A stretch of 58,363 nucleotides of DNA from Pseudomonadota bacterium (lineage in GTDB: Bacteria; Pseudomonadota; Gammaproteobacteria; Burkholderiales; Burkholderiaceae_C), in contig JBJOPV010000001.1 of NCBI GenBank assembly GCA_046050625.1, forward strand, positions 1 through 58,363. The letters run 5' to 3'. The translations under genes and the position numbers were made by a program. The notes under the pieces were generated by a model, which was not told the DNA's origin, searched no databases, and saw only the letters and a program-made list of their open reading frames with translations. Position 1 is the first letter of the stretch. Every line of letters starts with the position of its first letter. This document shows, piece after piece, positions 250 to 36,860 of this stretch.

Positions 250-325
250 GCCGGTGTAGCTCAGTTGGTAGAGCAGCGCATTCGTAATGCGAAGGTCGTA
301 GGTTCGACTCCTATCTCCGGCACCA
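250..325 (+). tRNA. tRNA-Thr(CGT)
   Basis: 76-nt cloverleaf GCCGGTGTAGCTCAGTTGGTAGAGC...TTCGTAA...GGTTCGACTCC...CCGGCACCA with anticodon CGT and encoded CCA. Closely resembles E. coli thrW. Confidence 0.97.
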
Positions 326-387: not shown

Positions 388-1257
388 TCAAGGCCGGGCG
401 AGCTGCCCTTCCGCAGCGGCCGCGCTGCGCAGCAGGGCCTGGCGCACGCCAGCATCCAGACCCTCGAAACCGCGCGATCCGGCGGCGGCCGCGCGGGTCA
501 TCTCGACGCCCTGGCGGCTCGAGACGCGGCCCAGCGCCATCAGCGCATGATCGATGTTGTCGCTGCGCACCTGCTGCAGCACGTAGTCGGTCGATTCCAT
601 CGTGCCCAGATGGGCCAGGCCGTGCAGGGCCGACATCGCCAGCGCCGAGCGCTTCTCGCCGGTGTCGGCCTCGACGATGTGGACCAGCCCGTCGAGCGCC
701 TCCGGCCGCAGGGTCTGCTCGAGCACCTGCAGGATGCGGCCACGCCACTCGGGCGGCAGCCGGCCGTAATCCTCGCCCAGCGCGGTGATCGTCTCGGCGT
801 CGGCCAGCCGAGCCAGCACGCTGATGGCACTGCGCTCGACCGCCGGATGTGGGCTGCGCAGCAGCGCCTCGCGCCAGGCTGGCAGGCTGGCCGCATCGGC
901 CGTGTCCTCGAGCCGGCGGGCCAGCGCGATCGCATCGTCGCCGGGCGGCAGCGCGGCCAGCCGGCTGATCTCGCCGGCGGTGGCACGGGCCGCGAGCGGC
1001 AGCGCCGGCAGCGCGATCGCCCCGGAAGCCCCGCTGCCAAACGGCGAGCCGGCCGTCGATCCGGGCGGGACGATCAGGCCGCCCCCCGTCGATCCGGCCA
1101 CCGCCGTGGCGCCGCCTTGCACCGAGGCGGGAGCCATGCGGTCACGGACCAGCCAGGCGGCCGTGCAGGCCACCGCCGCCAGCGCCAGCCCGGCCACGAT
1201 CAGCCGGGTCGGCCGTACCCGACGCTGCATCCGGGAGGACTCAGGGAATGGTGACAT
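388..1257 (-). CDS. Membrane-anchored HEAT/armadillo-repeat-like hypothetical protein
   Basis: N-terminal basic residues plus a TM helix (RLIVAGLALAAVACTAAWLV), a Gly/Ser linker, then amphipathic helical repeats (VERSAISVLARL, WRGRILQVLEQ, ALHGLAHLG, ALMALGRV). Start overlaps the 3' end of the lysyl oxidase gene. Confidence 0.6.
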   Translation of the reverse strand: MSPFPESSRMQRRVRPTRLIVAGLALAAVACTAAWLVRDRMAPASVQGGATAVAGSTGGGLIVPPGSTAGSPFGSGASGAIALPALPLAARATAGEISRLAALPPGDDAIALARRLEDTADAASLPAWREALLRSPHPAVERSAISVLARLADAETITALGEDYGRLPPEWRGRILQVLEQTLRPEALDGLVHIVEADTGEKRSALAMSALHGLAHLGTMESTDYVLQQVRSDNIDHALMALGRVSSRQGVEMTRAAAAGSRGFEGLDAGVRQALLRSAAAAEGQLARP

Positions 1258-2812
1258 TCAGGCGTCCGGTGTTGTTGCTCTCGTCGAGTTCGTCGATCAG
1301 GTTCATCGGGTCCATGACGATCTCGAGCACATAGCTGCCCGCCGGCACGCCGGTGATGTCGATCCACTGGCCCGACAGGTTGGAGCTGTAGACGTCCGCC
1401 CAGCCGGCCTGGATGCCCTGGTTGCTGCAGGTGTAGCGCGCCGAAGGGTTGGCGCCGCTGTCGATGCGGGTGATGTCCATCAGGCAGAAGCCCACCTTCT
1501 TGCCGGTGCGCACCACCGCGCCGCTGGCGTCGAGCAGGCGGTACTGCGCAAAGCTGCGGAAGTGGTAGTGGCCGTGGCAGCCCCCCCACTCGAAGGAACT
1601 GCTCGAGGCCGGATTGCCCAGCACCAGATCGGCAGAGCCGATGTTGCGCGTCTGGGTGTTGAAGCGCAGCAGCCGGTGCGTGCCAGCGGTGATGGTGCCC
1701 TCCTCGATCTCGCAGGCGTTCGCCGCGAAGGTCTCGGTGGTGATGCGCGGGTTGGCCGCCGCCATCGAGATGGTGATGTCGGGCCGGCCGGTGCTGGCGG
1801 TGCCGGACTGGGTGGCCTTCAGCGTCACGCCGGCGTAGGCACGGTAGCCGTGCAGCATCAGGAAATAATCGCCCGCGCGCGGCGTGGCGATCGTCACCGT
1901 CTCGGCATTGCCCGACAGGTAGGGCCGCTGATCCCAGGTCGAGGTGGTGGCGAGCTGGCCGTACTTCACATGCAGATCGGCATCGCCGCTGCCGCCCGAG
2001 ATCGAGAAGCTCACGCTGCTGACGCCCGCCGGCACCGCGACGCGGAAATTGGCCACGCTGCCCTGGCCCCCGGCCAGATTGGCCACCGACGCGCCGATCG
2101 CCAGCGTCTGCACCGGATTGATGAGGGTGTAGGTGCCGGCGCTCACGCTGCTGACCGACTGGCTGCCGACAAAGGCCGCCGCACGCACCTGGGTGGTCGT
2201 GGTGACCAGGATCGGTGCGGTGTAGACCTCCGAGCCGGTGCCGGGGGTGCTGCCGTCCAGGGTGTAGCGGATCACCGCATCCGGCGTGGCCGAGGCCAGG
2301 CTGACGCTGACGCGGCCGGAGTGCGTGCCCGGCGCCGGGCTGAAGGTGGGTGCGGCCACCGTCGCCGCCGAGCCACCACCGCCGTCATGGGTCGCCTTGA
2401 GCGTCAGGCCGCTGTAGGCGCTGTAGCCGCGCAGCATCACATGCCAGGTGCCGGCCGCCGGTGCGCTGACCGAGACCGCTTCGTTCGAGCCGCTGCGGTA
2501 GGGGCGGTAATCCCAGGTCGACAGCGTCGGCGCGGCGCCGCGACGCACATACAGGTCGGCGTCGCCAGAGCTGCCCGCAGTCGAGATCGACAGCGTGCTG
2601 GCACCCGCCGGCACTTCGATCGTGTAGTAGCGCTGGCTGCCATAGGCGCCGGCAATGCCGCCGACCGCGGTGCCGCTGGCCAGCGCCTGCGGCGCGGAGG
2701 CGGTCTGGGCCACAGCGGGCGCGGTGACGGTCAGTCCAGGCAGCGCCAGCGCGGCGGCCAGGAGGATGCGGGCCAGCAGCGATGCCGGTCGGAGTGCGGT
2801 CAGGGCGTTCAT
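1241..2812 (-). CDS. Secreted lysyl oxidase family protein with PPC, Fn3-associated/chitobiase-like and second PPC domains
   Basis: Signal peptide (..APAVA-Q). Two PPC repeats (GDADLYVRRG/GDADLHVKYG..YRPY..GSNE). APTFSP..IRYTLDGSTP..YTAPI module. C-terminal LOX motifs RLLRF..RNIGSADL, CHGHYH, KKVGFCLMD, GWADVY, QWIDITGV..GSYVL, ESNN. Alternative GTG start at 2839. Confidence 0.88.
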   Translation of the reverse strand: MNALTALRPASLLARILLAAALALPGLTVTAPAVAQTASAPQALASGTAVGGIAGAYGSQRYYTIEVPAGASTLSISTAGSSGDADLYVRRGAAPTLSTWDYRPYRSGSNEAVSVSAPAAGTWHVMLRGYSAYSGLTLKATHDGGGGSAATVAAPTFSPAPGTHSGRVSVSLASATPDAVIRYTLDGSTPGTGSEVYTAPILVTTTTQVRAAAFVGSQSVSSVSAGTYTLINPVQTLAIGASVANLAGGQGSVANFRVAVPAGVSSVSFSISGGSGDADLHVKYGQLATTSTWDQRPYLSGNAETVTIATPRAGDYFLMLHGYRAYAGVTLKATQSGTASTGRPDITISMAAANPRITTETFAANACEIEEGTITAGTHRLLRFNTQTRNIGSADLVLGNPASSSSFEWGGCHGHYHFRSFAQYRLLDASGAVVRTGKKVGFCLMDITRIDSGANPSARYTCSNQGIQAGWADVYSSNLSGQWIDITGVPAGSYVLEIVMDPMNLIDELDESNNTGRLNVTIP

Positions 2813-2899
2813 GTCAGGGAGTGCGTCAGGCGCGTCCACGTATCAATTCACAAATTATGTTACATGCATTTACATTGAAGCCTCCTCTCCTTTTCGCCG

Positions 2900-4720
2900 A
2901 TGCCTTCGCGCATGTGCTTTGCCCCGACTTCCATCTCGCTCCTGCCTGCACTGCGGATCACCCGCCTTGTCGCTGTCTTCCTGCTGCCGATCGGGGCGGC
3001 GGCGGCCACAGCGGCTCCGCCGGCCCCTGTGCCTCGGATCACGATGCTGGTCATCGACCGGAGCGGCAGGCCACTGCCACTCGACCAGCTCGGTGCAGTG
3101 CGCGACCGCCGCGGCCGGGCGCTGTCGATCAGCCGGCTCGACCTGATGCTCTCGGGCCTGCAGCTGCAGACCGGCGATGGCCGCTGGGTGGGGCCGGCCG
3201 GCTGGCATGGCCATGTCCGCGCCGCCCTGCCCGACCGGCACGAGCCGCTGCCGGGCCTGGCGCCGGGCCGCTACCGCGCGCTGCGCTTCGCGATCGGCGT
3301 CGCGCCCGAGGCCAACCATGCCGACCCGAACCGGCTCGCGCCCGGCGACCCGCTGCATCCGCTGGTCAACGACATGCACTGGGGCTGGACCGGCGGCTAT
3401 GTCTTCGCCGCGATCGAGGGCCTGTGGCAGTTCGACCGTGCCGAGGCCGGCCGCACCGGCGGCTTCTCGTACCACCTGGCCGGCGACATCCACCGCATCA
3501 CCGTGACGCTGCCGGGCCCGCTGCAGCTCGCCGCCGGCGGCACGCTGCGCCTGAAGCTCGATGCCGGCCGGCTGCTGGCGGCGGTCGACCTCTCGAAGGA
3601 CGGCGACTCGACCCACTCGCGCAGCGACGACCCGCCCTCGCGGGCGCTGAGGGCGGCGCTGGCACGCGCCTTCCGGGTCGAGGCGCTGGCCCCTCAGGCG
3701 GCCGCGGACCCGCGCAGCGGCACGACCGCCGCCGGCACGGCCCCCATCGGCACCACGCCTTACCGCTGGAGCGTGGGCGCCCACCTGCCCCGGGTGACGC
3801 TGCCGGCCGACAACCCGCTGACCGTGCAGGGCGTGGCGCTCGGGCGCCAGCTCTTCGGCGATCCGCGCCTGTCACGCGACGGGCGCGTCAGCTGCGCGAC
3901 CTGCCATGTGCCCGACCGGGCCTTCGTCGATCCAGGCCGGGCGACCAGCCGCGGCGTCGACGGCCGCGAAGGCCTGCGCAACACCCCGACGCTGAGCAAT
4001 CTGGCCTGGAGCCGCCATTTCGGCTGGGATGGCGGGCGCAGCACGCTGCGCGAGCAGGCACTGCGCCCGATCGAGCTGATGCACGAGATGGGCGACCGGC
4101 TGCCGCAGGTGGTCGAGCGGCTTGGGCGGGATGCGGCGCTGCAGGCGCGCTTCCGCCAGGCCTTCGGCGGTCCGGTCAGCGCAGCGCGCCTGGGCCTGGC
4201 GCTGGAGCAGTACCTGCTGACGCTGGTGGCACAGGACGCCAAGTTCGACCGCGTGATGCAGGGCCGCGCGCAGTTCAGCCCGGCCGAGAAGCGTGGCTTC
4301 GAGCTCTTCCTGACCGAGCACGACCCCCGCCAGGGCCTGCGCGGCGCCGACTGCTTCCACTGCCACGGCGGCAGCCTGTTCACCAGCCAGCAGTTCGCCA
4401 GCATCGGTCTGCCGCGCCTGAAGGGCCGCCCGGACGATCCCGGCCGCGCCGGCGTCACCGGGCTGGAGAGCGACCGCGGCCGCTTCCGGGTGCCGAGCCT
4501 GCGCAATGTCGCGCTGACCGCGCCCTACATGCACGACGGGCGCTTGCGCACGCTCGAGGAGGTCATCGAGCACTATGACCACGGCGTCGAGCGCGGTCCG
4601 AGTCTCGATCCCAACCTGGCCAAGCACCCGCCCGCCGGCCTGGGCCTGTCCGCCGAGGACAAGGCCGCGCTGGTGGCCTTCCTGAAGACGCTGACCGAGA
4701 TCAGCGCGGCCGGACGCTGA
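2900..4720 (+). CDS. MbnP-MbnH fusion: WxW copper-binding domain plus di-heme cytochrome c peroxidase (MauG/MbnH type)
   Basis: Signal peptide. MbnP-like LRFAIGV..NHADP..MHWGWTGGY. Then PADNPLT..LGRQLFGDPRLS..SCATCH, RNTPTL, WDG, CFHCH, FRVPSLRNVALTAPYMHDG, VIEHY. Confidence 0.85.
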   Translation: MPSRMCFAPTSISLLPALRITRLVAVFLLPIGAAAATAAPPAPVPRITMLVIDRSGRPLPLDQLGAVRDRRGRALSISRLDLMLSGLQLQTGDGRWVGPAGWHGHVRAALPDRHEPLPGLAPGRYRALRFAIGVAPEANHADPNRLAPGDPLHPLVNDMHWGWTGGYVFAAIEGLWQFDRAEAGRTGGFSYHLAGDIHRITVTLPGPLQLAAGGTLRLKLDAGRLLAAVDLSKDGDSTHSRSDDPPSRALRAALARAFRVEALAPQAAADPRSGTTAAGTAPIGTTPYRWSVGAHLPRVTLPADNPLTVQGVALGRQLFGDPRLSRDGRVSCATCHVPDRAFVDPGRATSRGVDGREGLRNTPTLSNLAWSRHFGWDGGRSTLREQALRPIELMHEMGDRLPQVVERLGRDAALQARFRQAFGGPVSAARLGLALEQYLLTLVAQDAKFDRVMQGRAQFSPAEKRGFELFLTEHDPRQGLRGADCFHCHGGSLFTSQQFASIGLPRLKGRPDDPGRAGVTGLESDRGRFRVPSLRNVALTAPYMHDGRLRTLEEVIEHYDHGVERGPSLDPNLAKHPPAGLGLSAEDKAALVAFLKTLTEISAAGR

Positions 4721-4725
4721 CGGCT

Positions 4726-6906
4726 TCAGTCCGCCGCCAGCAGCCCCGGCAGCCCGCTGGCGCGCCGGGTGCGCCGCTGCAGCGCACGCGCCCAGACGCT
4801 GCGGTCGGGCGCCACCAGCGTGAAGGCGTCCTTCGCACGGGTGATGCCGGTGTAGACCAGCTCGCAGCTCAGCACCGGGTTGATCTGCGGCGGCAGCACC
4901 AGCGCCACATGGGCGAACTCCGAGCCCTGCGACTTGTGCACCGTCATGGCGAAGGCAGTCTCCACCGCCGACAGCCGGCTGGTCATGATCGCGCGCGGCG
5001 CCAGCCCCTCGCCATCGACGAACCACACCCGCAGCCGCCCGTCGGCCGAGCGCAGCGTGACGCCCACATCGCCGTTGTGCACGCCCAGCGCCGGATCGTT
5101 GCGGGTGACCATCACCGGCCGGCCGGCGTACCACTCGCCATCGCCGAGCCTCCAGCGCGCCCGCGCCCGCGCCTCGATCAGGCGGTTGAGCCCCTGGACG
5201 CCCCAGTCGCCCTCGCGCAGCGCGCACAGCAGCCGGAAGCGCTCGAAGGCGTGCACGACCTGCGTGATCGCGTCGGGCTGATCCGGCCGGACCCGGTCCA
5301 GCAGCGCCAGGAAGTCGCCATAGCCCGGCGCCTTGTCCCCGCGCCCGTCGAGCGCCAGCGCAGCCACCCGCTCCAGCGCCGCCGCGCTGGCCGAGGCGGC
5401 ATCGGGCAGCGCCAGCCGCGCCACCGCCACGTCGCCCCGGCGCAGCACGTGCATGGCGGCCTCGGCATCGCGGGCATTGACGGCCAGGGCGAGATCGCCG
5501 ATCGCGCCATCGAAGCGCCGGCTCTCGCGCAGCATCACCGTCTGCTGCGCCAGCACCGACACCGGCGGATCGTCGGCCCGGACCGCGCCCGAGCGCGACT
5601 GCGGCAGCCTCATCCCGGCCGGCAGCGTCTGGCCGGTGCAGGCCTCGATCCAGGCGGCGCTGGCGTCGTCGTAGTGGCCGCGCACCGCGTCGCCACAGAA
5701 GTCGCCCAGCACCGCGCCGGCCTCGACCGAGGCCAGCTGGTCGCGGTCGCCCAGCAGCACCAGCCGCGCCGAGGCCGGCAGCGCCGCCAGCAGCGCGGCC
5801 ATCATCTCCAGGTGCACCATCGAAGCCTCATCCACCACCAGCAGATCGACCTCGAGCGGATGGCGCGCGTCGTGGCGCAGCGCGCGGGTGTCGGGCCGCG
5901 CGCCCAGCAGCCGGTGCAGCGTGGTGGCCTCGCGCAGGCGCTCGCCCAGATCGACCCAGTCGAGCACGCCCGGCAGCGCCTGGCCGAGCTGCTGCAGCGC
6001 CAGGTCGATCGACTGCTTCAGCCGCGCCGCGGCCTTGCCAGTGGGCGCGGCCAGCGCGATGCGCAGCGTGCGCGGCGCCGGATGCAGCGCGTAGCCCAGC
6101 GCCAGCAGCCGGGCGACGGTGTAGGTCTTGCCGGTGCCGGGGCCGCCGGTGATCAGCGCCAGCTGCCCGCGCAGCGCCACCGCGCAGGCGATGCGCTGCC
6201 AGTCGGGCCCGTCCTTCGGATCACGCGGGCTGAACAGCCGGTCGAGCCACTGACGCACGTCGGCGGGCGCGGGCGTCGGCCAGCCGGTGACGGCCTCGCC
6301 CGGCGGCTGCGGCCGCACCCGCTCGCGCACCGCGGCGGCCACCGCCTGCTCGTCGCGCCAATGCCGGCGCAGGTAGAGCCGGCCGTCGGCTTCGAGCACC
6401 AGCGGCGCGCCGGTGGACGCCGCGCCGCCCTCCTCCACCGCCCCGCTGCCCAGCAGCGCGGCGCGCCAGTCGTCCAGGGACTGCGGCAGGCGCCGCAGCA
6501 GCGCCGCCAGCGCCTGCTGGGCCGCCGCCGGCCCGTCGAGCCAGCCTTCGTCGTCGGCGCGATCGGCCTCGCCGGGGCGGCGCTGGCGCAGCAGCTCGCC
6601 GAGCGCGATGCAGGTGTGGCCGCGGCCCTCGCGCTGCGCCAGCAGCGCCGCGGCCAGCAGCAGCTCCGGCCCGGCCTGCGGCCGCTCGTCGGCCAGCCAC
6701 CGCGCCAGCGCCACGTCGAGCCGGCGCAGCCAGCGCTTCTTCTTCTCGGCCGGGATCTCCTGGCCCCAATGGTCGAGCAGCGCGAGCAGCTCGGCCCGGT
6801 CCGGCGCACGCGCCTCGGCCACGGGCTCGGCCTCGGCGGAAAGATCGAACGGGTCGGGCGCGTCGTGGGCGGCGCCGGGGGGCGGCCGCCGGTCAGGTCG
6901 GGTCAT
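4726..6906 (-). CDS. recD: Exodeoxyribonuclease V alpha subunit
   Basis: ITGGPGTGKT Walker A, AAPTGKAAARL, TLHRLLG, VVDEASM, LGDRDQL, AMTVHKSQGSEF, YTGITRA. Confidence 0.96.
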   Translation of the reverse strand: MTRPDRRPPPGAAHDAPDPFDLSAEAEPVAEARAPDRAELLALLDHWGQEIPAEKKKRWLRRLDVALARWLADERPQAGPELLLAAALLAQREGRGHTCIALGELLRQRRPGEADRADDEGWLDGPAAAQQALAALLRRLPQSLDDWRAALLGSGAVEEGGAASTGAPLVLEADGRLYLRRHWRDEQAVAAAVRERVRPQPPGEAVTGWPTPAPADVRQWLDRLFSPRDPKDGPDWQRIACAVALRGQLALITGGPGTGKTYTVARLLALGYALHPAPRTLRIALAAPTGKAAARLKQSIDLALQQLGQALPGVLDWVDLGERLREATTLHRLLGARPDTRALRHDARHPLEVDLLVVDEASMVHLEMMAALLAALPASARLVLLGDRDQLASVEAGAVLGDFCGDAVRGHYDDASAAWIEACTGQTLPAGMRLPQSRSGAVRADDPPVSVLAQQTVMLRESRRFDGAIGDLALAVNARDAEAAMHVLRRGDVAVARLALPDAASASAAALERVAALALDGRGDKAPGYGDFLALLDRVRPDQPDAITQVVHAFERFRLLCALREGDWGVQGLNRLIEARARARWRLGDGEWYAGRPVMVTRNDPALGVHNGDVGVTLRSADGRLRVWFVDGEGLAPRAIMTSRLSAVETAFAMTVHKSQGSEFAHVALVLPPQINPVLSCELVYTGITRAKDAFTLVAPDRSVWARALQRRTRRASGLPGLLAAD

Positions 6907-20624: not shown

Positions 20625-22004
20625 TCAGCGCGGCCCGGGCTCCGCCCGGAACGGCGCCAGCCAGGCGCGCAGACCCGCCCCGGCGGCCTGCATCTGCAGC
20701 AGCGCCATCAGATGTTCATGTTCAGCCTGGGCCCGTGCGAGCTGCAGTTGCGCATGATCGTTCTCGGCCGAGATCAGATCGAACAGCGAGCGCCGGCCCA
20801 GACGTGCCCACTGCTCCCGGGTGGCGCGCCGCAGCCGGTCGCTCTCCTCGAGCAGCTGCACGATCTGCTGCTGACGGGACTGCGCCGCCTGCGCGGCGTC
20901 GTGCAGCACCTGGATCTGACGGCTGCGATCTTCAAAGCGTGCCTCGCGCTGCATGCGCGCCGCGGTGACCCGCTCGATCGCAGCCTGCACGCTGGCAGCG
21001 GCAGCGCCGGCATCGGCCAGCACCAGGCCCAGCGTCAGTCCCGCATTCCAGGCGGTGATCGAACTGCCATCGCGCCGACTGGCCGAGGAGCCGATCTGCC
21101 AGCTCAGCTGTGGCGCGTTCGCCGCACGGGCCGCCTCGACCTGGCGGTCGAGCGCCTCGGCCTGGCGCTGCAGCTGGCGCAGCTCGGCCGCCTCCGGCAG
21201 GGCGTCGATCAGGCCGGCCAGCGACGGCAGCGTCTCGAGGCCCTCGAGCGAACCCGGTGGCAGCTCGACCGACGCCGCGCCCCCCTCCCCGACCAGGCTG
21301 CGCAGCCTCAGCTCCGACTGGCGCAGCTGTGTCTGCACCTCCGTGCGCGACAGCTCGGCCTGGCGCAGGCTCTTGGCGGCCTGCACCTGCTCGCTGCCAC
21401 GCCCGCGGTCGAGCGCGACGATCTCGCTGACCTGCCGCGCCAGACAGGCCATGCGTGCCACCTGTCGGTCCCAGACCCGCAGCTGGAGCGTCTGGCGCCG
21501 ACGCTCCAGCGCCGCGGCGATCGCCTCGAGCGCGATCTGCTCGCGCATGGCCTCGGCACCCAGCTCGCCGGCCTCGGCCAGTCCACGGTAATAGGCGGAT
21601 TCAGCCTGGCGCCGGCCGCCGTCGAGCAGCGGCGCCGACAAGGTCAGGCCCAGCCCCTGCTGCAGGCTCGAGCCAGACTGGCCGCCACCGCGTGCACCGC
21701 CCCAGACACCCGAGCCGGACAGGCCGAGCTGAGGACGACCGCCCGCCTCGACCTGCAGCCGGTCCTGACGCCAGGCGCGACTGCCGGCGATCTGGCCCGC
21801 CACCTCGGGGCTGCGGCGCACCGCCTCGTCGGCCAGCGCGGCCAGCACCGCGCGGGCATCGCGCAGCACCGCCGGCCGCGCGGCGGGCGCCGCGGTCTCG
21901 CTGTCCTCGTCACAGACCGATGACGGGGCAGACTGGGCCCGCACGCCCGGCGCCAACGCCATCAGGCCGGCCAGCAACGCCAGACACAGAACCGGCCGCT
22001 GCAT
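20625..22004 (-). CDS. TolC-family outer membrane protein of a type I secretion system
   Basis: Signal peptide, two OEP-like helical repeats, LSAPLLDGG, EQWARLGRRSLFDLISAEND. In an operon with the HlyD and ABC genes. Confidence 0.85.
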   Translation of the reverse strand: MQRPVLCLALLAGLMALAPGVRAQSAPSSVCDEDSETAAPAARPAVLRDARAVLAALADEAVRRSPEVAGQIAGSRAWRQDRLQVEAGGRPQLGLSGSGVWGGARGGGQSGSSLQQGLGLTLSAPLLDGGRRQAESAYYRGLAEAGELGAEAMREQIALEAIAAALERRRQTLQLRVWDRQVARMACLARQVSEIVALDRGRGSEQVQAAKSLRQAELSRTEVQTQLRQSELRLRSLVGEGGAASVELPPGSLEGLETLPSLAGLIDALPEAAELRQLQRQAEALDRQVEAARAANAPQLSWQIGSSASRRDGSSITAWNAGLTLGLVLADAGAAAASVQAAIERVTAARMQREARFEDRSRQIQVLHDAAQAAQSRQQQIVQLLEESDRLRRATREQWARLGRRSLFDLISAENDHAQLQLARAQAEHEHLMALLQMQAAGAGLRAWLAPFRAEPGPR

Positions 22005-23266
22005 CAGCGCTCCCGGAAGGCCTCGCGGCCCTTGAGCATCGGAGAGATCAGGAACTCGAGCACGCTGCGCTCGCCGGTGCGGATCTCGATCGAGGCGGTC
22101 ATGCCCGGCAGCACCGGCAGCGGCTGCCCGTCCGGCCCCTGAAGCGTCGAGACGCGAGTCGCCACCCGGACCCGGTAGTGGGTCTGCGGCTGCCCGTTCG
22201 GGCCATTGCCGGCCTCGAGGGTGTCGGGGCTGATGTACTCGACCTCACCCGTCAGGCCGCCGTAGCGGTAGTAGTCGTAGCTGTCGAGCTTGATGGTGGC
22301 CGGCATGCCCACCCGCACGAAGCCGACCTCCGCCGGCGCCAGCCGTGCCTCGATGCGCACCGTCTCGCCGACCGGCACCAGCTCGAGGATCGGCGCGCCC
22401 GCGCCGACGACACCGCCGCGCGTGGTGATGCGCAGGTTCTTGACGATGCCGCGCACCGGGGCCTTCAGCGTGGTGCGCTGCAGCACGTCCAGCCGCGCCA
22501 CCTGTTGCTCGCCGATCTGCGCCAGCTCGCCGCGCACCCGCAGCAGGTCGGTGGCCGCGTCCTGGCGGAAGCGGTTGATCCGCTCGGCCATCTGCATCTG
22601 CAGGTCGTTGCGCTGGCGCTCGAGCCGCAGCACCTCGACCTCGGACATCAGGCCGCGCGCGGCCATCTGGCGCGCGGTGGCCAGCTCGGCATCGAGCATC
22701 GTCATGCTGGACCGGCTGACCGCGATCGCCTCGTCGAGGGCGCGCCGCCGCGCCTGGAAGGCCTCGGTCTCGGCCGCGACCAGCCCGGCCTGGGCCCGTA
22801 CCTCCGCCGGGAAGGCCGGACTGCGCCCGCCCGCCTCGGCCTCCAGGCGCGCAGCGGTGGCCAGCAGCGCAACCTGACGCGCACGGCCCTCGTTCTGCTG
22901 CGCGGCGAAGCGGGTCGGGTCCAGCCGCACCAGCTCGGCGCCGGCCTCGACCAGATCGCCCTCGCGCACCAGCAGCTCGGCCAGCAGGCCGCCCTCCAGG
23001 CTGGCGATGACCTGCTCGTGGCCACCGGGTGCGACCTTGCCGGGCGCCTTGGCGACGATGTCGACCCGCGCCTGCGCCGACCACACCCCGGTGACGGCCA
23101 CGATGACGCACAGCAGGTAGAGCGCCCACAGCGCGCGCGGCATCGGCTCGCCCAGCTCGGCCTGGCGGCTGCCGTGCAGGAAACGCTCGTCGCCGGGCAT
23201 CAGCACGCCGGCGGCCGGGGCGGGTGTCTGGCGCCGGCCGGAAGGGGTCAGGATCGGACTCGTCAT
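22004..23266 (-). CDS. HlyD-family membrane fusion protein
   Basis: TM segment, QVIASLEGG..LLVREGDLVEAG, LKAPVRGIVKN, YGGLTGEVEYISPD, PGMTASIEIRTGERSVLEFLISP. Confidence 0.95.
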   Translation of the reverse strand: MTSPILTPSGRRQTPAPAAGVLMPGDERFLHGSRQAELGEPMPRALWALYLLCVIVAVTGVWSAQARVDIVAKAPGKVAPGGHEQVIASLEGGLLAELLVREGDLVEAGAELVRLDPTRFAAQQNEGRARQVALLATAARLEAEAGGRSPAFPAEVRAQAGLVAAETEAFQARRRALDEAIAVSRSSMTMLDAELATARQMAARGLMSEVEVLRLERQRNDLQMQMAERINRFRQDAATDLLRVRGELAQIGEQQVARLDVLQRTTLKAPVRGIVKNLRITTRGGVVGAGAPILELVPVGETVRIEARLAPAEVGFVRVGMPATIKLDSYDYYRYGGLTGEVEYISPDTLEAGNGPNGQPQTHYRVRVATRVSTLQGPDGQPLPVLPGMTASIEIRTGERSVLEFLISPMLKGREAFRER

Positions 23267-23268
23267 GT

Positions 23269-25500
23269 TCAGCAGACCTCCTCGGCCCGGGGGGCCGTCG
23301 CCGTGGCCGCCGCACCCGACACGGGACGGGTGCCAGTCAGCGCTTGCAGAACCGCCTGGCGCGGGCCGTCGGCGATGAGCCGCCCGCCCTCGAGCACTGC
23401 GATGCGCTCGACCAGCTCCAGCATCGCCGGCCGGTGCGTGACCACCACCAGCGTGCAGCGCGGCAGGGCCTGGCGCAGCTGCGCGACGAACTGCGCCTCG
23501 GTCTGCGCGTCCATCGCGCTGGTGGGCTCGTCCATCAGCAGCACCTGAGGGCGCAGCAGCAGCGCCCGCGCCAGCGCGACCAGCTGGCGCTGGCCGCCCG
23601 AGAGCATCACGCCACCCTCGCCCACCGGCATGTCCAGACCCATCGGATGCGCGGCCACCACCCGGTCCAGCCCGGTCAGTCGCAGCACCTCGGCGAGCTG
23701 GTCAGCGCCGGCCTCGCGGCCCAGCAGCAGGTTCTCGCGCACCGTGCCACGGAACAGCCGGGGCTCCTGCTCGACCACGCCGATGTGCCGGCGGAAATCG
23801 GCCGGGTCGAGCTGGCGCAGGTCCAGCCCGTCGATCTCGACCGCACCGCTGGTGGGCTGGTAAAGCCCGGCGAGCAGCCGCAGCACCGTCGACTTGCCAC
23901 TGCCGATGCGCCCGAGCAGCGCGATGCGCTCGCCCGCCTGGAGGCGCAGCGTCACGCCCGAGAGGGCCTGCGGCGCCTGGCCCGGCGGGCCGTAGGCGAA
24001 GCCGACATCGCGCAGCGCCAGCCGCCCCTCCACCCGTGGGCAGGGCAGGAAGGCGCGCTGCGGATCGCGCTCGACCGGCAGCGCCATCAGGCGGTCGAGC
24101 ATGCGCAGCGCCGCGCGCGCGCCCTGGTAGCGCGAGGCCAGCGCCACCACGCTGCCCAGCGGCGCGATCGCCCGGCCGGCGAACATCACCGCCGAGATCA
24201 GCGCCCCGCCGGTGAGCTGGCCGGCGCCGATCAGGTGCACGCCCCAGACCAGCATCACGATGGTGATCAGCTGCTGCGCCACCATCGACACATTGTTGAC
24301 CCAGCTCGACAGCGCCCGCGCCCGCAGCGCCGACTGCGAGGCCAACGCATGCGCCTGCTCGTACTGGCGCTGCACATGGGCCTGCGCGCCGGTGGCCCGG
24401 ATCGTCTCGATGCCGTCCATCGCCTCGACCAGCAGTCCCTGCATGTCGGCCATCTGGTGCTGCTGTGCCAGCATGCTGCGCCGCATCAGGCTCTGCACGC
24501 CCACCGTCATCAGCAGAATCAGCGGCACCGCGATCACCAGCACCAGTGCCAGCGGCCCGGCCAGCAGCCAGGTCGCGGCAATGAACAGCGCGATGAAGGG
24601 CAGATCGCTGACCACCGACATCGAGGCCGAGGCAGAGAACTCGCGCACCACCTCGAGCTGGGCCATGTGATGCGCGAAGGATCCGGCCGAATCGGGCCGG
24701 TGCTCCAGTCGCAGCCCGAGCGACTGGCGCATCAGCACGCTGCCCAGCGCCAGATCGGCGCGGCGACCCGCCTGGTCGATCAGGTGGCTGCGCAGCTGGC
24801 GCGCCACCAGATCGAAGCCGGTGGCCAGCAGTGCCCCGATGGCCAGGGACCACAGCGTGACGGTGGCCTGATGCGGAATGACCCGGTCGTAGACCACCAT
24901 CGCGAACAGCCCGCCCACGAGCATCAGCACGTTGCTGAGGAAGGCCGCCAGCATCGCGCCGCGGTAGTAGGGCAGATAGCGGCCCAGCGTGCGCCAGAAC
25001 CAGTGGCCGTCCAGCGACTCGGCCGGCGCGTCGGCCGCCGAGCGCGAGGACAAGCCGCGCGACCCGTGCGACTCGCCCGGGCCGGCCAGCAGCATGTCGC
25101 CGTCGTGCAGCGCGCACAGCGCCTCGTCGTCCAGACGCTGCGGGACCGGCGTCGTGCCGCTGGCGTCGAAGATCAGCAGCTCGTGGCTCAGGCGAGCATC
25201 GGCGCCGACATGGCGTGCCAGCAGCACCGCGGTGCGGCCGTCACGCAGTGGCAGCAGCACCGGCAGCAGCAGCGCCAGCACCTCGGCGGCATCGCGCCTC
25301 ACCCGCCCGGCCTGCAGGCCAGCGTGCTCGAGCACCTGGCAGGCGCCGGCGGGCGTGAGCGGCCGCTGCACGCCCAGGCCGTCGAGCAGCGAGCCGGCGC
25401 TGCGCTCGATGCCATGGTGGCGGCAGAGCCAGTGCACCGCGCCGAGCAGCGCGTCGGCGCTGCCGGCCGCGGCCTGCCCGGACGGTGCGGCGGCGTTCAT
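23269..25500 (-). CDS. Type I secretion ABC transporter (C39-like domain, permease, ATPase; LapB/LssB-like)
   Basis: VYDRVIP, GRIGSGKST Walker A, LSGGQRQ signature, MDEPTSAMD, VVTHR. N-terminal C39-like domain. Start ATG 25500 overlaps the upstream stop. Confidence 0.95.
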   Translation of the reverse strand: MNAAAPSGQAAAGSADALLGAVHWLCRHHGIERSAGSLLDGLGVQRPLTPAGACQVLEHAGLQAGRVRRDAAEVLALLLPVLLPLRDGRTAVLLARHVGADARLSHELLIFDASGTTPVPQRLDDEALCALHDGDMLLAGPGESHGSRGLSSRSAADAPAESLDGHWFWRTLGRYLPYYRGAMLAAFLSNVLMLVGGLFAMVVYDRVIPHQATVTLWSLAIGALLATGFDLVARQLRSHLIDQAGRRADLALGSVLMRQSLGLRLEHRPDSAGSFAHHMAQLEVVREFSASASMSVVSDLPFIALFIAATWLLAGPLALVLVIAVPLILLMTVGVQSLMRRSMLAQQHQMADMQGLLVEAMDGIETIRATGAQAHVQRQYEQAHALASQSALRARALSSWVNNVSMVAQQLITIVMLVWGVHLIGAGQLTGGALISAVMFAGRAIAPLGSVVALASRYQGARAALRMLDRLMALPVERDPQRAFLPCPRVEGRLALRDVGFAYGPPGQAPQALSGVTLRLQAGERIALLGRIGSGKSTVLRLLAGLYQPTSGAVEIDGLDLRQLDPADFRRHIGVVEQEPRLFRGTVRENLLLGREAGADQLAEVLRLTGLDRVVAAHPMGLDMPVGEGGVMLSGGQRQLVALARALLLRPQVLLMDEPTSAMDAQTEAQFVAQLRQALPRCTLVVVTHRPAMLELVERIAVLEGGRLIADGPRQAVLQALTGTRPVSGAAATATAPRAEEVC

Positions 25501-25985
25501 GCGGTCTTGCGCAGCAGGCTCATCAGGTGCACGCCGCGCCATTCCTGGCTGAGGATCTGGAAGCTGCCCCGGAAGCCATACATCGAGGCCCAGCGCACCT
25601 TGTCGTCGAAGTACAGCGGGAAGGTCTCCTCGGTGATGATGTTGACGTGGGTCGGATCCCGGAAGGCCGGCCCGTGCGGGAAGGCCGGCGTGAAGGACAT
25701 GAACACGCCACCGGGCTTGAGCACCCGGTGGATCTCGTTCATCACCTCGACGAAGGCGTTGCGGCGCTGCGGCAGGTAGATCAGGCGCGGCACATGCTCG
25801 AGGAAGTCGTGCGCGGTCACATAGTCGAAGCTGTCATCGGGAAACGGAATCGGCTCGATGACCAGATCGGCCTTGACGATGTGCGCCTCGGCGTCGTCGC
25901 GCACGTCGATGCCGTAGACCTCCTGGGCGTTGAACGGATTCTTGGGCTGCAGGCCGCAGCCGAGGTCGAGGGACTTGGTCGTCAT
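25497..25985 (-). CDS. Class I SAM-dependent methyltransferase
   Basis: LDLGCG motif I, IPFPDDSFDYV..DFLEHV, EIHRVLKPGG, DPTHV. Confidence 0.9.
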   Translation of the reverse strand: MTTKSLDLGCGLQPKNPFNAQEVYGIDVRDDAEAHIVKADLVIEPIPFPDDSFDYVTAHDFLEHVPRLIYLPQRRNAFVEVMNEIHRVLKPGGVFMSFTPAFPHGPAFRDPTHVNIITEETFPLYFDDKVRWASMYGFRGSFQILSQEWRGVHLMSLLRKTA

Positions 25986-26028
25986 CTGGTGTCGTCCTGT
26001 TCCGTGAAGAAGGAGCGGGGGGAGGCGC

Positions 26029-26841
26029 TCAGGCGGGCGTGGCCGGCGCGGTGGAATCGGCCAGCGGGCCGGGTTCGGTGAGACGGGCCGGCACGGTGGT
26101 GGCCTGCAGCGGCGGCGGCATGCGGAAGAAGCGCGCCCAGAAGTTCGGGCTGTACTTCCACCAGGCGTGGCCGCCCATCGGCGGGCGGCAGTCGATCGCG
26201 TGGTAGTGCTCGGGCTGCAGCTCCCAGGAGAAGCGTGCGGCCTCGCGCTCGTTGGGCAGCACGAAGTCGGCCGACAGCAGGCCCATGATCGCGAAGTACA
26301 GGTCCTCGCTCGAGCCGGTCCGGCGGAACATCTCCAGCGCCTGCGGGAACTCGCGCAGCAGCGCCTGGCACTTGCGGATGCGTCGCAGGCTCAGGCCGCC
26401 GTTGCCCACCAGCGCGCGCACCGTCTTGGCATGCGGCCCGCAGAACGGGTCCAGATCGACCTTGACCGTCACGCCCTGCGGCCACGGCGCGCCGATGTAG
26501 TCGTAGGGACGGCTCATCCAGTGGTCGAGGTCGTCGCGCAGCAGGATGGCGTCGGTCTGCAGCACCAGCATGAACTCGTGCGCCGCGTAGCGCTCGTAGA
26601 AGGCCGGCGACAGCATCAGCTGGTTGTAGCCGGCGATCGACGCGAAGTAGGCCGGATCGAAGGCCTCGAACGGAATGCCCGGATAGCGCAGCTGGTAGTA
26701 GCCGTAGTCCAGGCCGCGCGGACCGATGAAGCGCACGTCGCGCCCGGCCAGCAGCGGCAGCGAATGGTCGAGCGAGAACTGCTCCAGCACCGACAGCAGG
26801 GGCTGGTAGATCGGGATCAGGATGATCGTCGAGGGGGTCAT
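26029..26841 (-). CDS. DUF5672 family protein (glycosyltransferase-like)
   Basis: IPIY, YNQLMLS..FYERY, LQTDA, YDYIGAPW, VGNGGLSLRR, EDLYF, GGHAWWKY. Confidence 0.8.
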   Translation of the reverse strand: MTPSTIILIPIYQPLLSVLEQFSLDHSLPLLAGRDVRFIGPRGLDYGYYQLRYPGIPFEAFDPAYFASIAGYNQLMLSPAFYERYAAHEFMLVLQTDAILLRDDLDHWMSRPYDYIGAPWPQGVTVKVDLDPFCGPHAKTVRALVGNGGLSLRRIRKCQALLREFPQALEMFRRTGSSEDLYFAIMGLLSADFVLPNEREAARFSWELQPEHYHAIDCRPPMGGHAWWKYSPNFWARFFRMPPPLQATTVPARLTEPGPLADSTAPATPA

Positions 26842-26882
26842 GGCAGGCCTCGGCAGGCGCGGGGTCAGAGGATGCGGGGGCG

Positions 26883-28829
26883 TCAGGGCATGGCGCACAG
26901 CGCGTCGCGGGCATCGCCCAGGCGGCTCTGGCGCCACATCGCGATGCAGGCCGCCTCGACATCGCGGGTGAAGCCGGCCGTGTCGAACAGGGCCGAGTGC
27001 ACGCGCTGCGCCTGCAGCTTCGCCCGCAGCGCCGCGCGCCGCGCCGGATCGCGCGCCAGCGCCAGCGCCAGCGCCTCGTAGTCGGCGTGGCTGGCGGTGA
27101 CCAGCTCCGGCAAGCCGGCGGCCTGCAGCAGGCTGCCCGCCACCCGCGACGGAAAGGCCTGGCCGGAGCAGGTCAGCACCGGCAGGCCCGCCAGCAGTGC
27201 GTCCGCCGCGGTGGTGTGGGCGTTGTAGGGATGGGTGTCGAGGAAGAGATCGGCGACGCGGTAGCGCGCCAGGTGGTCCTCGACCCGCGGCACGCGCTGG
27301 GCAAACACCAGCCGCGCCGGATCGATGCGGGCGGCCTGCGCGGCCGCGCGCAGGTTCTTCTGCGACAGCGCGCTGCGCGACATCAGCCACAGCACGCTGC
27401 CGGGCACCGCCGCCAGCAGCCGCATCCAGATCGCGAAGACGCCGGGCAGGATCTTGTAGTCGTGGTTGAAGGAGCAGAAGACCACGCCGTCCTCGGGCAG
27501 GCCGCACTCGGCCCGCGTGGGTGTGCGCTCGGCGATCTGCAGGCCGGCGGCCGGCGGCAGGTAGGCGTCGGGCAGGTAGATCACCCGCTCGTCGTAGAAG
27601 CGCTGCTGATCGGGCGGGATCACATGGCGGTCGGCCAGGATGTAGTCCATGTAGCCATTGCCCAGCGTGCCGGGATAGCCCAGGTAGTTGACCTGCACCG
27701 GCGCGGGCCGGTGGCTGAAGATGTCGCTGCGCGAGTCGGCGGTGTAGCCGGCCAGGTCGATGGCGATGTCGACCTCCATCGCGCGCAGCTGCCGGGCGAT
27801 GTCGATCGAACTCATGCGGCGCGCGTCGATGAAATGGTCGAAGGCGGCCAGCATGCGCGTGCGCAGCCGGCTGCCGTCATCCGGCCCGAGCGAGACCGCG
27901 ATGGTCTCGAAGCGGCGGCGGTCGTGGTGCTCGAAGATGCCCGCCATCAGATGGCCGACCGGATGCTCGCGCAGGTCGGGCGACACATAGGCCAGACGGA
28001 TGCGGTCGTGGCGGTAGCGCTCGCCGTTCCACAGCCGGGTGGTCGAGGGTGGATAGCGGTGGGCGGAGAAGGTGCGCGCACAGCGCTGGTGGTCTTCGGC
28101 AGAGTCCGACAGGCCCATGAAGGCCAGCGACTTGCACGCGCGCCGGCCGGCGCGCACGCCCTCGATGACCTGCTGGGAGAGCACGTCGAAGCCGCTCCAG
28201 TCACAGGCATGGAGCTGTTCGTAGACCAGCATGCCCGCGCCATAGTCGTAGGCCGGATTGATCGTCTGCAGCTGGCGCAGCATCGCCACCGCCTCTTCGG
28301 TGCGGCGGAACTCGGTCAGCAGCGTGGCGCAGTTGGCCAGCGCGGTCTCGTTGGCCGGCTGCAGCGCCAGCACCTGCTGGAAGCGCTCGAGCGCGGCGGC
28401 ATGCTGCAGCAGCTCGCGCAGCAGCACGCCGCTGTTGATCAGCGCCTCGGTGTAGTCGGGCTTGAGGTCGATCGCGCGCTGGTAGCTCGTCAGCGCCTCG
28501 TCGCGACGGCCCGTGCCTTGCAGCGCGGTCGCATGCGCGAACCACAGTGGCGCGAAGCCGGGCACGTCGCGCACGCCGCGCTCGAGCAGCGCCAGCGCCT
28601 CGGCCGCGTCGGCACGGCGCAGCAGGATGACCGCCAGCGAGTACAGCGCGACCGGATCGGCCGGCCAGTGCCCAAGATAGAAGCGGAAGAGCTGCTCGGC
28701 CAGCTCGACGCGCCCTTGGTTCTGGTGGTCGAGGGCCTGGATCAGCAGCGCACGATCGGGGACCAGCGGTGCGGCCGCTGCAGCAGCCGGGGCGGCCGAG
28801 ATCTGGGGGGGCGAGGCGGTGAGGACCAT
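26883..28829 (-). CDS. TPR-containing O-GlcNAc transferase-like protein (GT41/SPINDLY family)
   Basis: N-terminal TPRs, then RLAYVSPDLREHPVG, DIAIDLAGYT, RPAPVQVNYLGYPGT, FNHDYKI, DLFLDTHPYNAHTTAADAL, SRVAGSLL. Confidence 0.92.
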   Translation of the reverse strand: MVLTASPPQISAAPAAAAAAPLVPDRALLIQALDHQNQGRVELAEQLFRFYLGHWPADPVALYSLAVILLRRADAAEALALLERGVRDVPGFAPLWFAHATALQGTGRRDEALTSYQRAIDLKPDYTEALINSGVLLRELLQHAAALERFQQVLALQPANETALANCATLLTEFRRTEEAVAMLRQLQTINPAYDYGAGMLVYEQLHACDWSGFDVLSQQVIEGVRAGRRACKSLAFMGLSDSAEDHQRCARTFSAHRYPPSTTRLWNGERYRHDRIRLAYVSPDLREHPVGHLMAGIFEHHDRRRFETIAVSLGPDDGSRLRTRMLAAFDHFIDARRMSSIDIARQLRAMEVDIAIDLAGYTADSRSDIFSHRPAPVQVNYLGYPGTLGNGYMDYILADRHVIPPDQQRFYDERVIYLPDAYLPPAAGLQIAERTPTRAECGLPEDGVVFCSFNHDYKILPGVFAIWMRLLAAVPGSVLWLMSRSALSQKNLRAAAQAARIDPARLVFAQRVPRVEDHLARYRVADLFLDTHPYNAHTTAADALLAGLPVLTCSGQAFPSRVAGSLLQAAGLPELVTASHADYEALALALARDPARRAALRAKLQAQRVHSALFDTAGFTRDVEAACIAMWRQSRLGDARDALCAMP

Positions 28830-28905
28830 GGTGCGCCATGGTTGCAGCGATGCCCTGCACGAACTCGCAGAAAGCGCAAGGCAAGCCCGGCGCATTTCGG
28901 CAGTT

Positions 28906-28945
28906 CGGGACGGGGCCGTCCCCCCCCCCGTCCCGTCCCGTCCCG
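28906..28945 (-). terminator. GC hairpin with a C10 tract and (GTCCC)3, between the giant gene and the GT41 gene
   Basis: CGGGACGGGG...CCCCGTCCCG inverted repeat just downstream of the giant gene stop. No U tract, so terminator function is uncertain. Confidence 0.4.
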
Positions 28946-28956
28946 GTTTCAGGACT

Positions 28957-36375: not shown

Positions 36376-36860
36376 GGGGTCGGGTCCGGTGATGTACTGA
36401 TCAGTCGACGGCCACCGCGGCAAGCGCACGACAGCCTTCTCTGCGCCCGATATCGACGCCCCCTGCCCGAACTGGAGCAGGATCACCCGAAAAGATGAAA
36501 TTCCCGCAGCGCCGCGGCAGAACGCCACACCCGAACGCGAAACAATGCAATTGCGCAGTTCAGGCAGAACGACACCTGCGGCTCCAGACCCCTGCCCGCC
36601 GGGCGTGCGCCCCCTGCCTGCCGACAATCCCCCGCCTTGCGCGCACTGGCTCACGCCCTGAACCTCTACCTGCACAGGCCTGCGTGCAGACTTAACGTGG
36701 CCTCACGGAATGAAAACTGCCCCTGCAATCCGGGGAAGCCGCCCGGACAGGTGCCGGATAAACTGCCGCCGGTTTGTTCCGTTTATCACCTCTTTCATTG
36801 CGAGTGCATCCGGCCATGAACCCCACCGGACCCTGCCCTCGCGCCAGGAGTATGCAAGTC

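What the first reader, a model, noticed from the sequence alone, without database searches (positions are those of the whole stretch)
388..4720. Three-gene copper/quinone module: lysyl oxidase and HEAT partner divergent from an MbnP-MbnH fusion
Seen: an exported lysyl oxidase homologue and an overlapping membrane-anchored helical-repeat gene share a short (under 100 bp) AT-rich divergent spacer with an exported MbnP-MbnH fusion. The unit sits between tRNA-Thr and recD. Known: LOX needs Cu and a Lys-Tyr quinone (LTQ) and releases H2O2. MbnH converts a Trp in the MbnP WxW motif to kynurenine, creating a Cu site. MauG-type di-heme enzymes build protein quinone cofactors. MbnPH pairs usually accompany methanobactin or TonB copper-uptake genes, and none are in this window. 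Inference: this is a dedicated maturation unit in which MbnPH supplies Cu to LOX, assists LTQ formation, or uses the H2O2 that LOX produces. I know of no described LOX-MbnPH system.
Basis: partly seen in the sequence, partly recalled or inferred. Interest (0 to 1): 0.88.

Follow-up and report, generated by a model that had tools for sequence, protein, structure and literature searches.

The report
Lysyl oxidase with its copper-loading partner
A three-gene unit found at different chromosome sites in distant bacteria keeps a predicted exported relative of the collagen-crosslinking enzyme lysyl oxidase beside a fused copper-site/two-haem protein that likely loads it with copper, and close relatives of that fused protein sit beside a different copper oxidase in other bacteria.

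Summary
The lysyl oxidase (LOX) keeps all three copper histidines and the cofactor Lys/Tyr. The MbnP-MbnH fusion keeps WxW and both haem motifs. The HEAT-LOX/MbnPH trio is a conserved cassette: 6 of 7 other LOX-positive genomes of the genus, 3 of 3 in another family, and one Verrucomicrobiaceae genome, at several chromosome sites. It has one origin, though, and most other bacterial LOX genes examined have no MbnP nearby, so the fusion is not generally required. Of the 80 closest fusion loci, 33 lie near YHYH genes, 21 near galactose-oxidase-like copper enzymes and 2 near LOX. The LOX-linked fusions branch from among the galactose-oxidase-linked ones, which points to a client swap. Best reading (0.5): an accessory that uses H2O2 to build its own kynurenine copper site and passes copper to LOX. 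Nothing biochemical is shown, and enzymatic cofactor synthesis is less likely. Two key MbnH/MbnP papers could not be read.

The parts
388..1257 (-). HEAT-like partner, 289 aa: N-terminal membrane anchor (predicted), low-confidence Pro/Ala/Gly linker, helical repeat domain (residues about 88-287); a small discrete family
   Evidence: 29 clusters at E<=1e-30 among 1.84 billion representatives; directly downstream of LOX in every trio locus
1241..2812 (-). Lysyl oxidase homologue, 523 aa: leader, PPC, Fn3_assoc, PPC, LOX domain with His413/415/417, Lys439, Tyr475
   Evidence: aligned to LOXL2 5ZE3, E 7e-23; the five residues are invariant in 82 homologues
2813..2899 (.). 87-bp divergent spacer with an AT-rich core; ATGTTAC-like motif shared by related spacers; TTACAT direct repeat at 11-bp spacing; one sigma-70-like site on the + strand
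   Evidence: 1 site; shuffles 0.1; 10 spacers aligned; regulatory role is inference
2900..4720 (+). MbnP-MbnH fusion, 606 aa: MbnP domain with M159-H-W161-G-W163, H192, H239 and no cysteine; di-haem domain with CATCH (332-336), CFHCH (485-489), W376, Y559
250..325 (+). tRNA-Thr(CGT), left flank; not part of the cassette
   Evidence: other trio loci have other flanks
4726..6906 (-). recD, right flank; not part of the cassette
   Evidence: RecD_N, AAA_19, UvrD_C_2

Best explanation
The unit is a conserved three-gene cassette in which the MbnP-MbnH fusion likely acts as a copper-loading accessory for the predicted exported lysyl oxidase: its di-haem domain would use H2O2 to convert its own WxW tryptophan to kynurenine, the resulting site would capture scarce copper and pass it to LOX, and LOX would then build its Lys-Tyr quinone by itself. 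Shown here: the genes, their catalytic residues, their conserved linkage and the ancestry of the fusion among galactose-oxidase-linked fusions. Taken from published work on relatives: kynurenine formation and copper binding by MbnP/MbnH, and autocatalytic LTQ formation. Inferred: copper hand-over, use of LOX-derived H2O2 by the fusion, joint control from the spacer, and the HEAT protein as a membrane-anchored scaffold or folding helper for LOX. The accessory is probably helpful under copper limitation rather than essential. The amine substrate of this LOX is not identified.
For: (1) Linkage: 6 of 7 other LOX-positive genomes of the genus, 3 of 3 LOX-positive among 135 genomes of another family, 1 Verrucomicrobiaceae genome and 3 metagenome contigs (one has a LOX domain identical to that of G1043). 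At least five different flanking contexts. Identities to the window fall to 74% (LOX domain), 44% (HEAT) and 55% (fusion), with congruent trees. (2) G024 and G028 have a second MbnP elsewhere (in G024 a split MbnP+MbnH pair beside a TonB receptor) and still keep the fusion beside LOX. (3) Of 80 closest fusion loci, 21 are near a galactose-oxidase-like gene, 33 near YHYH, 2 near LOX, 24 near none, and none near two kinds. The one galactose-oxidase neighbour aligned to solved structures keeps Cys, Tyr, Tyr-His and His; one YHYH neighbour is fused to a multicopper oxidase. In 145 Verrucomicrobiaceae, 30 of 105 galactose-oxidase-like genes lie within 5 kb downstream of an MbnP on the same strand, against 0.26 by chance (a lower bound). 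(4) The 13 LOX-linked fusions form one branch (98/97) inside the galactose-oxidase-linked side (98/95); the galactose-oxidase group is never one branch in 200 bootstrap trees. (5) W161 is kept in 88 of 90 fusions, W163 in 85, H192 in 88, H239 in 89, both CxxCH in 90. (6) In G010, which lacks the fusion, LOX has 72 unique changes against 30 in a sister, while tauE has 8 against 7 (one case). (7) Literature: MbnP co-expressed with MbnH has a kynurenine copper site (PMC11951088, passages); mbnP and mbnH deletions leave copper-bound methanobactin (PMC13729199, passages); Streptomyces GlxA needs Sco and the peroxidase DtpA under low copper and is rescued by copper (PMC4736821, abstract and first part of discussion).
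Against: (1) The LOX link arose once, so the genomes are not independent tests. (2) Other LOX genes mostly lack it: of 30 metagenome LOX loci with at least 2 kb upstream only 1 has MbnP, and none of 13 other genome LOX loci does (some contigs are short). G392 has a same-architecture LOX and no MbnP match. G010 keeps LOX and HEAT with no MbnP match (83% complete). (3) An archaeal LOX refolds active with 1 mM CuSO4 and no helper (PMC6452851, passages). (4) The Met before WxW, which I take to be the MbnP copper ligand, is Met in the window and in 7 of 13 LOX-linked fusions but Leu in 79 of 90 fusions; the four cysteines of canonical MbnP are absent. (5) One galactose-oxidase-linked fusion (L047) has lost the WxW segment and kept the haem domain. 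(6) 24 of 80 fusion loci show no client, and 75 of 105 galactose-oxidase-like genes have no listed MbnP within 5 kb. (7) No expression, binding or activity data.
Confidence: 0.5

Rival explanations
1. Co-regulated passengers: LOX-HEAT and the fusion came together once, share a bidirectional promoter and travel as a block, but do not act on each other.
For: Single origin. Solitary LOX genes are the rule. Clean loss of the fusion in G010 at the same chromosome site. The partners are divergent, not one operon.
Against: The block is kept down to 44-55% identity at five or more sites, with unrelated flanks. The sister fusions also lie beside a copper oxidase. LOX speeds up where the fusion is lost (one case).
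Confidence: 0.18
2. Peroxide partner: the di-haem domain removes the H2O2 that LOX releases, or oxidises the client by one electron, and the MbnP domain is secondary.
For: Both identified clients release H2O2. A fungal copper radical oxidase is activated by a peroxidase encoded head-to-head with it (PMC9770985, passages). DtpA uses GlxA-made H2O2 (PMC4736821). L047 keeps only the haem domain intact beside a galactose oxidase.
Against: LOX has no radical resting state to re-oxidise (established knowledge). 12 of the 21 galactose-oxidase neighbours already show their own two-CxxCH module. WxW is kept in 85-88 of 90 fusions. The Tyr aligned to MbnH suggests an oxidising rather than a detoxifying enzyme (role of that Tyr recalled).
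Confidence: 0.17
3. Enzymatic cofactor synthesis: the di-haem domain oxidises Tyr475 of LOX at long range, as MauG does for TTQ, and so builds LTQ.
For: MauG-like fold and residues. mtoX-SCO1-mauG couples a copper enzyme to a MauG homologue (PMC5739008, passages). Earlier scan notes report His-less LOX genes beside MauG-type genes (not tested by me).
Against: This LOX keeps the full three-His copper site. LTQ is listed as autocatalytic (PMC11951088). The di-haem domain has its own likely substrate in the same chain. No LOX-MbnP or LOX-MauG fusion among 16 longer LOX proteins (weak evidence).
Confidence: 0.1
4. The fusion serves the unlinked 1801-aa galactose-oxidase-like protein of the same genome, and LOX is only its neighbour.
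For: G000 encodes such a protein on C131 and has no other MbnP match. 4 of 7 trio genomes of the genus have a galactose-oxidase-like gene.
Against: G011 (99% complete) has the trio and no galactose-oxidase match; G023 (98%) has a galactose-oxidase-like gene and no MbnP match.
Confidence: 0.05

Closest known systems
MbnP/MbnH pair of Methylosinus trichosporium OB3b (PDB 7L6G, 6E1C; PF20243; TIGR04052, TIGR04039)
   Same: MbnP domain with WxW aligned to 7L6G; di-haem domain closest to 6E1C by sequence and fold.
   Different: One polypeptide; no cysteines in the MbnP part; below the NCBIfam cut-offs; no methanobactin or TonB genes nearby; neighbour is a copper oxidase.
Lysyl oxidase family (PF01186; human LOXL2 5ZE3; Haloterrigena turkmenica LOX)
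   Same: His-x-His-x-His, Lys and Tyr are conserved.
   Different: PPC-Fn3-PPC N-terminal modules, a coupled HEAT partner and a linked MbnP-MbnH fusion. The passages read of PMC4448552 and PMC6452851 mention none of these.
Streptomyces GlxA with Sco, ECuC and the peroxidase DtpA (PMC4736821)
   Same: An exported copper oxidase with a self-made cofactor depends on a copper chaperone and a haem peroxidase under low copper; the peroxidase uses the oxidase's H2O2.
   Different: Different oxidase (Cys-Tyr radical, not LTQ), different peroxidase family (DyP) and chaperone (Sco); here both helper roles would be in one chain.
mtoX-SCO1/senC-mauG operon of methanethiol oxidase (PMC5739008)
   Same: A copper enzyme is linked to a copper-binding domain and a MauG-like domain, sometimes fused in one gene.
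   Different: SCO1 instead of MbnP; the proposed role of MauG there is TTQ synthesis in the client.
Fungal tandem peroxidase-alcohol oxidase pair (PMC9770985)
   Same: Head-to-head genes for a secreted copper oxidase and a haem peroxidase.
   Different: Class II peroxidase that activates a copper radical oxidase; no copper-site domain; LOX has no such activation step.

Membership tests
Lysyl oxidase (PF01186) | Pfam domain above cut-off | tested here: met
   112.6 bits against 20.4
Lysyl oxidase (PF01186) | Three copper histidines | tested here: met
   CHGHYH aligns to LOXL2 CHRHYH; H413/415/417 invariant in 82 sequences
Lysyl oxidase (PF01186) | LTQ-forming Lys and Tyr | tested here: met
   K439 and Y475 align to the Lys of GHKASFC and the Tyr of WDMY in 5ZE3 (that these form LTQ is recalled); invariant
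Lysyl oxidase (PF01186) | Mature LTQ and amine oxidase activity | not testable with these tools
   needs protein chemistry
MbnP (PF20243 / TIGR04052) | Profile match | tested here: inconclusive
   Pfam 70.3 bits against 27 is met; TIGR04052 27.2 against 140 is not
MbnP (PF20243 / TIGR04052) | WxW motif | tested here: met
   W161-G-W163, aligned to MAWNW of 7L6G; 88 and 85 of 90 fusions
MbnP (PF20243 / TIGR04052) | Met and His copper ligands | tested here: inconclusive
   M159 matches the Met before WxW in 7L6G but is Leu in 79 of 90 fusions; which His binds copper in 7L6G could not be read; H192 aligns to a 7L6G His
MbnP (PF20243 / TIGR04052) | Four-Cys motif (name of the 7L6G entry) | tested here: not met
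   no Cys between residues 7 and 331
MbnP (PF20243 / TIGR04052) | Kynurenine at the first Trp and bound copper | not testable with these tools
   needs mass spectrometry and metal analysis
MbnH / MauG-type di-haem enzymes | Two CxxCH motifs and the bCcP/MauG fold | tested here: met
   best fold match 6E1C, E 4e-24
MbnH / MauG-type di-haem enzymes | Inter-haem Trp and axial Tyr | tested here: met
   W376 and Y559 align to Trp and Tyr of 6E1C, kept in 90 and 89 of 90; their roles are recalled
MbnH (TIGR04039) or MauG (TIGR03791) as named equivalogs | Score above curated cut-off | tested here: not met
   204 against 363 and 188 against 444 bits
Methanobactin / TonB-linked MbnPH loci | Neighbouring methanobactin, TonB-receptor, SCO or PCuAC genes | tested here: not met
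   none among the best hits of 29 window genes; such loci exist separately in the genus
MauG-type maturation of a client cofactor (MauG-MADH, mtoX-mauG) | Direct oxidation of a client residue | not testable with these tools
   needs enzymology; no complex prediction was obtained

The most novel reading that the evidence does not exclude
Fused MbnP-MbnH is a general, swappable copper-metallation module for exported copper oxidases. It matures itself with the H2O2 its client makes, and it has moved from a galactose-oxidase-type client to a lysyl oxidase, with YHYH proteins as a third client class of undiscovered copper enzymes. This would be the first dedicated maturation factor for any lysyl oxidase, and would name the missing copper acceptors of MbnP.
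Probability: 0.35. Interest if true: 0.82.

Novelty: new variant of a known kind. Interest (0 to 1): 0.6.

Why it matters
Two questions meet here. The destination of the copper bound by MbnP is not known outside methanobactin loci, and bacterial lysyl oxidases have no known physiological context (PMC6452851 calls their function enigmatic). This 4.3-kb cassette lets both be tested with three genes; a near relative of the LOX is annotated in a named Sphaerotilus species. A soluble bacterial LOX with its own helper genes may also be a route to a structure with mature LTQ, which the 2025 review (PMC11951088) says has not been obtained. The score is held down because the LOX link has one origin, is not needed by most bacterial LOX genes, and has no functional data.

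Tried and rejected
Complex prediction of the LOX domain with the HEAT domain: the queue was full and no job ran, so there is no verdict. Expression: contigs from four RNA libraries cover the genes, the spacer and recD alike, so they may be DNA and say nothing on transcription; they only show the same trio in strains about 94-96% alike. Viral contigs: no LOX relative. Plasmids: 37 records matched, none over 80% of the protein, and the 20 listed cover only the N-terminal modules. LOX fused to MbnP or MauG: none among 16 longer proteins (weak evidence). HEAT function: Foldseek gave only generic helical repeats, best E 2e-3; the Atlas gave generic HEAT clusters. HEAT as a lysine-rich LOX substrate: rejected, it has one lysine. 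YHYH adjacency across 145 genomes could not be counted, since 244 matches were unlisted. tRNA-Thr as a cassette boundary: rejected, other trio loci have other flanks. Literature: searches showed no paper on LOX with MbnP/MbnH; one search was swamped by unrelated words (15 of 220 listed) and 118 listed 15 of 85. Kenney 2019 (J Biol Chem, MbnH) and Manesis 2021 (PNAS, MbnP) are not held; their neighbourhood analyses and supplements may mention fusions or these partners. No supplements of any paper were read.
Full report
Observation. The three genes are as described. On the minus strand a 523-aa protein (1241-2812) carries PPC, Fn3_assoc, PPC and Lysyl_oxidase domains, and overlaps by 17 bp a 289-aa gene (388-1257) with one N-terminal hydrophobic stretch and a helical repeat domain. 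On the plus strand one 606-aa frame (2900-4720) joins MbnP and CCP_MauG domains. The starts are 87 bp apart, with an AT-rich core. tRNA-Thr and recD flank the unit. The LOX homologues most like it include proteins named for Sphaerotilus. No TonB or copper-chaperone family appeared among the best hits of the 29 other genes scanned in the window.

Catalytic residues. The LOX domain aligns to human LOXL2 (5ZE3, E 7e-23) with His413/415/417, Lys439 and Tyr475 in register, and all five are invariant in 82 homologues. The fusion's haem domain is closest to MbnH 6E1C by sequence (E 2e-49) and by fold (model pLDDT 88.9). Across 90 fusions both CxxCH motifs and W376 are kept in all, Y559 in 89, W161 in 88, W163 in 85, H192 in 88 and H239 in 89. 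An MbnP profile finds only 7L6G, with the WxW in register. Differences from canonical MbnP: no cysteines, and the Met before WxW is Leu in 79 of 90 fusions, though Met in the window and in 7 of 13 LOX-linked ones. NCBIfam cut-offs for MbnH, MauG and MbnP are not reached.

Conservation of the trio. Among 61 related genomes 8 have this LOX, all in the window's genus. Six of the 7 others have HEAT, LOX and the fusion in the same arrangement; G010 (83% complete) has LOX and HEAT only. In another betaproteobacterial family 3 of 135 genomes have it, all with the full trio; two of these are near copies. One Verrucomicrobiaceae genome of 145 has the trio. Flanks differ: tRNA-Thr or an efflux pump with recD; tauE with DUF2322; and three further contexts. 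Identities to the window run down to 74%, 44% and 55% for LOX domain, HEAT and fusion; pairwise identities of the three genes correlate (rho 0.77-0.79 over 78 non-independent pairs) and the trees agree. So the three genes are inherited as a block.

Limits of the link. I searched metagenomes with a profile led by a distant, same-architecture LOX. Of the best 80 of 423 loci, 3 have MbnP beside LOX; of the 30 with at least 2 kb upstream, 1 does. None of 13 other LOX loci from samples of 401 Verrucomicrobiota and 401 genomes of the window's family has MbnP or MbnH in the fetched stretch (several contigs are short and one ends inside the gene). G392 has a same-architecture LOX and no MbnP match. 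On the LOX tree all 14 trio rows fall in one starred branch with G010 and seven proteins of unknown context; two LOX+HEAT loci without the fusion lie next to it (weak support) and 18 solitary loci further out. This fits stepwise assembly with a single origin: LOX, then LOX+HEAT, then the trio.

What the fusion usually accompanies. The 80 closest fusion loci (best of 579 from a partial scan) are mostly from Verrucomicrobiota. Within up to 8 kb, 33 have a YHYH gene, 21 a galactose-oxidase-like gene, 2 LOX and 24 none of these; no locus has two kinds. Neighbours sampled from the 24 are mostly unrelated genes. The galactose-oxidase neighbour tested keeps the Cys, Tyr, Tyr-His and His of copper radical oxidases, and the Cys motif is found in 18 of the 21. 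In 145 Verrucomicrobiaceae not chosen by similarity to the window's fusion, 109 have MbnP and 80 a galactose-oxidase E-set domain; 30 of 105 such genes lie just downstream of an MbnP, against 0.26 by chance (27 MbnP matches were unlisted). On the fusion tree the three client labels need only two changes. With six canonical MbnH sequences as outgroup, the 13 LOX-linked rows form one branch (98/97), with the Verrucomicrobiaceae row splitting first, inside a LOX plus galactose-oxidase branch (98/95); their exact place in it is weak and the outgroup is distant (16 of 33 YHYH rows kept, the no-client rows left out). The simplest reading is a client swap in Verrucomicrobiota followed by transfer to Betaproteobacteria; the direction is inferred.

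Further hints. G062 holds three fusion paralogues: one beside LOX, one beside a galactose oxidase and one with no recognised client. The galactose-oxidase-linked copy has lost its WxW segment, which counts against copper loading as the only role. In G010, where the fusion is missing from the same site, LOX has 72 and 70 unique changes against 30 and 31 in two sisters, while tauE shows 8 against 7 and speB 13 against 7; this is one case. The window's own genome has an unlinked 1801-aa galactose-oxidase-like protein with a built-in di-haem module, but such genes do not track the fusion in the genus.

Mechanism. Published work shows that MbnP co-expressed with MbnH carries a kynurenine-containing copper site, and lists LTQ as autocatalytic (PMC11951088, passages). 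Deleting mbnP or mbnH leaves copper-bound methanobactin, which the authors read as a role in copper release or uptake (PMC13729199, passages). An archaeal LOX matures with copper alone (PMC6452851, first part and passages). In Streptomyces a copper oxidase needs Sco and a haem peroxidase only when copper is scarce (PMC4736821, abstract and first part of the discussion). Together with the neighbourhood data, the best reading is that the fusion makes its own copper site using H2O2, part of which LOX could supply, and loads copper into LOX in the periplasm, after which LTQ forms unaided (0.5). Rivals are co-regulated passengers (0.18), a peroxide-handling or activating partner as in the fungal head-to-head pair (0.17; PMC9770985, passages), MauG-like LTQ synthesis (0.10; compare mtoX-SCO1-mauG, PMC5739008, passages) and service of the unlinked galactose oxidase (0.05). 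The HEAT protein belongs to a small discrete family (29 clusters at E<=1e-30) with only generic fold matches. Its layout of membrane anchor, flexible linker and helical domain directly behind the enzyme gene recalls lipase foldases (recalled), so a scaffold or folding role is a guess. No complex prediction was obtained.

Novelty. All parts belong to known families, and pairing a copper oxidase with a copper chaperone and a haem peroxidase is a known kind of system. A LOX client, and a fused MbnP-MbnH that changes clients, did not appear in my searches. PMC3621798 (passages) notes MbnP/MbnH pairs far beyond methanobactin producers and has no hit for 'fusion', 'fused' or 'lysyl'. Of PMC4448552 I read only the first of six parts. 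The two primary MbnH/MbnP papers could not be read. Earlier notes of this scan report the galactose-oxidase and YHYH pairings on other DNA; a look-up with this LOX sequence found nothing. I rate it a new variant of a known kind, interest 0.6.

Noticed in passing
L201:1805-7207 (-) (G000 contig C131): 1801-aa galactose-oxidase-like protein with Kelch, GO E-set, F5/8, PKD, YVTN-like propeller, a C-terminal CCP_MauG module and a jacalin domain; unlinked to the fusion.
   Followed up: partly
L089:11545-14034 (+), L090:4162-6723 (-), L122:345-2873 (-): A second 830-850-aa CCP_MauG protein (ricin-type lectin domain in the two scanned) lies between the fusion and recD in close relatives and is absent from the window.
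   Followed up: partly
L047:7476-9002 (+) (G062 contig C30): Galactose-oxidase-linked fusion whose MbnP part lacks the WxW/His segment while the haem domain is intact.
   Followed up: partly
L095:5394-6989 (+) (G010): LOX and HEAT without the fusion; LOX evolves faster than in sister genomes while flanking genes do not.
   Followed up: yes
window 2850-2880: TTACAT repeated at 11-bp spacing and an ATGTTAC-like motif shared by related spacers; may be an OmpR-family site (inference). Several YHYH-linked fusion loci have response-regulator genes nearby.
   Followed up: no
L193:3368-6154 (+) (G879): A different LOX domain sits on a He_PIG/PA14/GLEYA scaffold like that of the giant galactose-oxidase-like proteins; the contig ends inside the gene.
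   Followed up: no
L043:2504-7960 (+): YHYH domain fused to multicopper oxidase domains, directly upstream of an MbnP-MbnH fusion.
   Followed up: no
L089:1565-6844: In G024 about 7 kb of extra genes, including an integrase-like frame (judged by eye), lie between tRNA-Thr and the HEAT gene.
   Followed up: no
window 20628-36675 (-): Type I secretion genes, a TPR/GT41 glycosyltransferase and a 2572-aa protein with about 60 ALTTAQ repeats.
   Followed up: no
window 36774-58024: Exopolysaccharide cluster with exosortase EpsH, DUF3485, polysaccharide export and glycosyltransferase genes.
   Followed up: no
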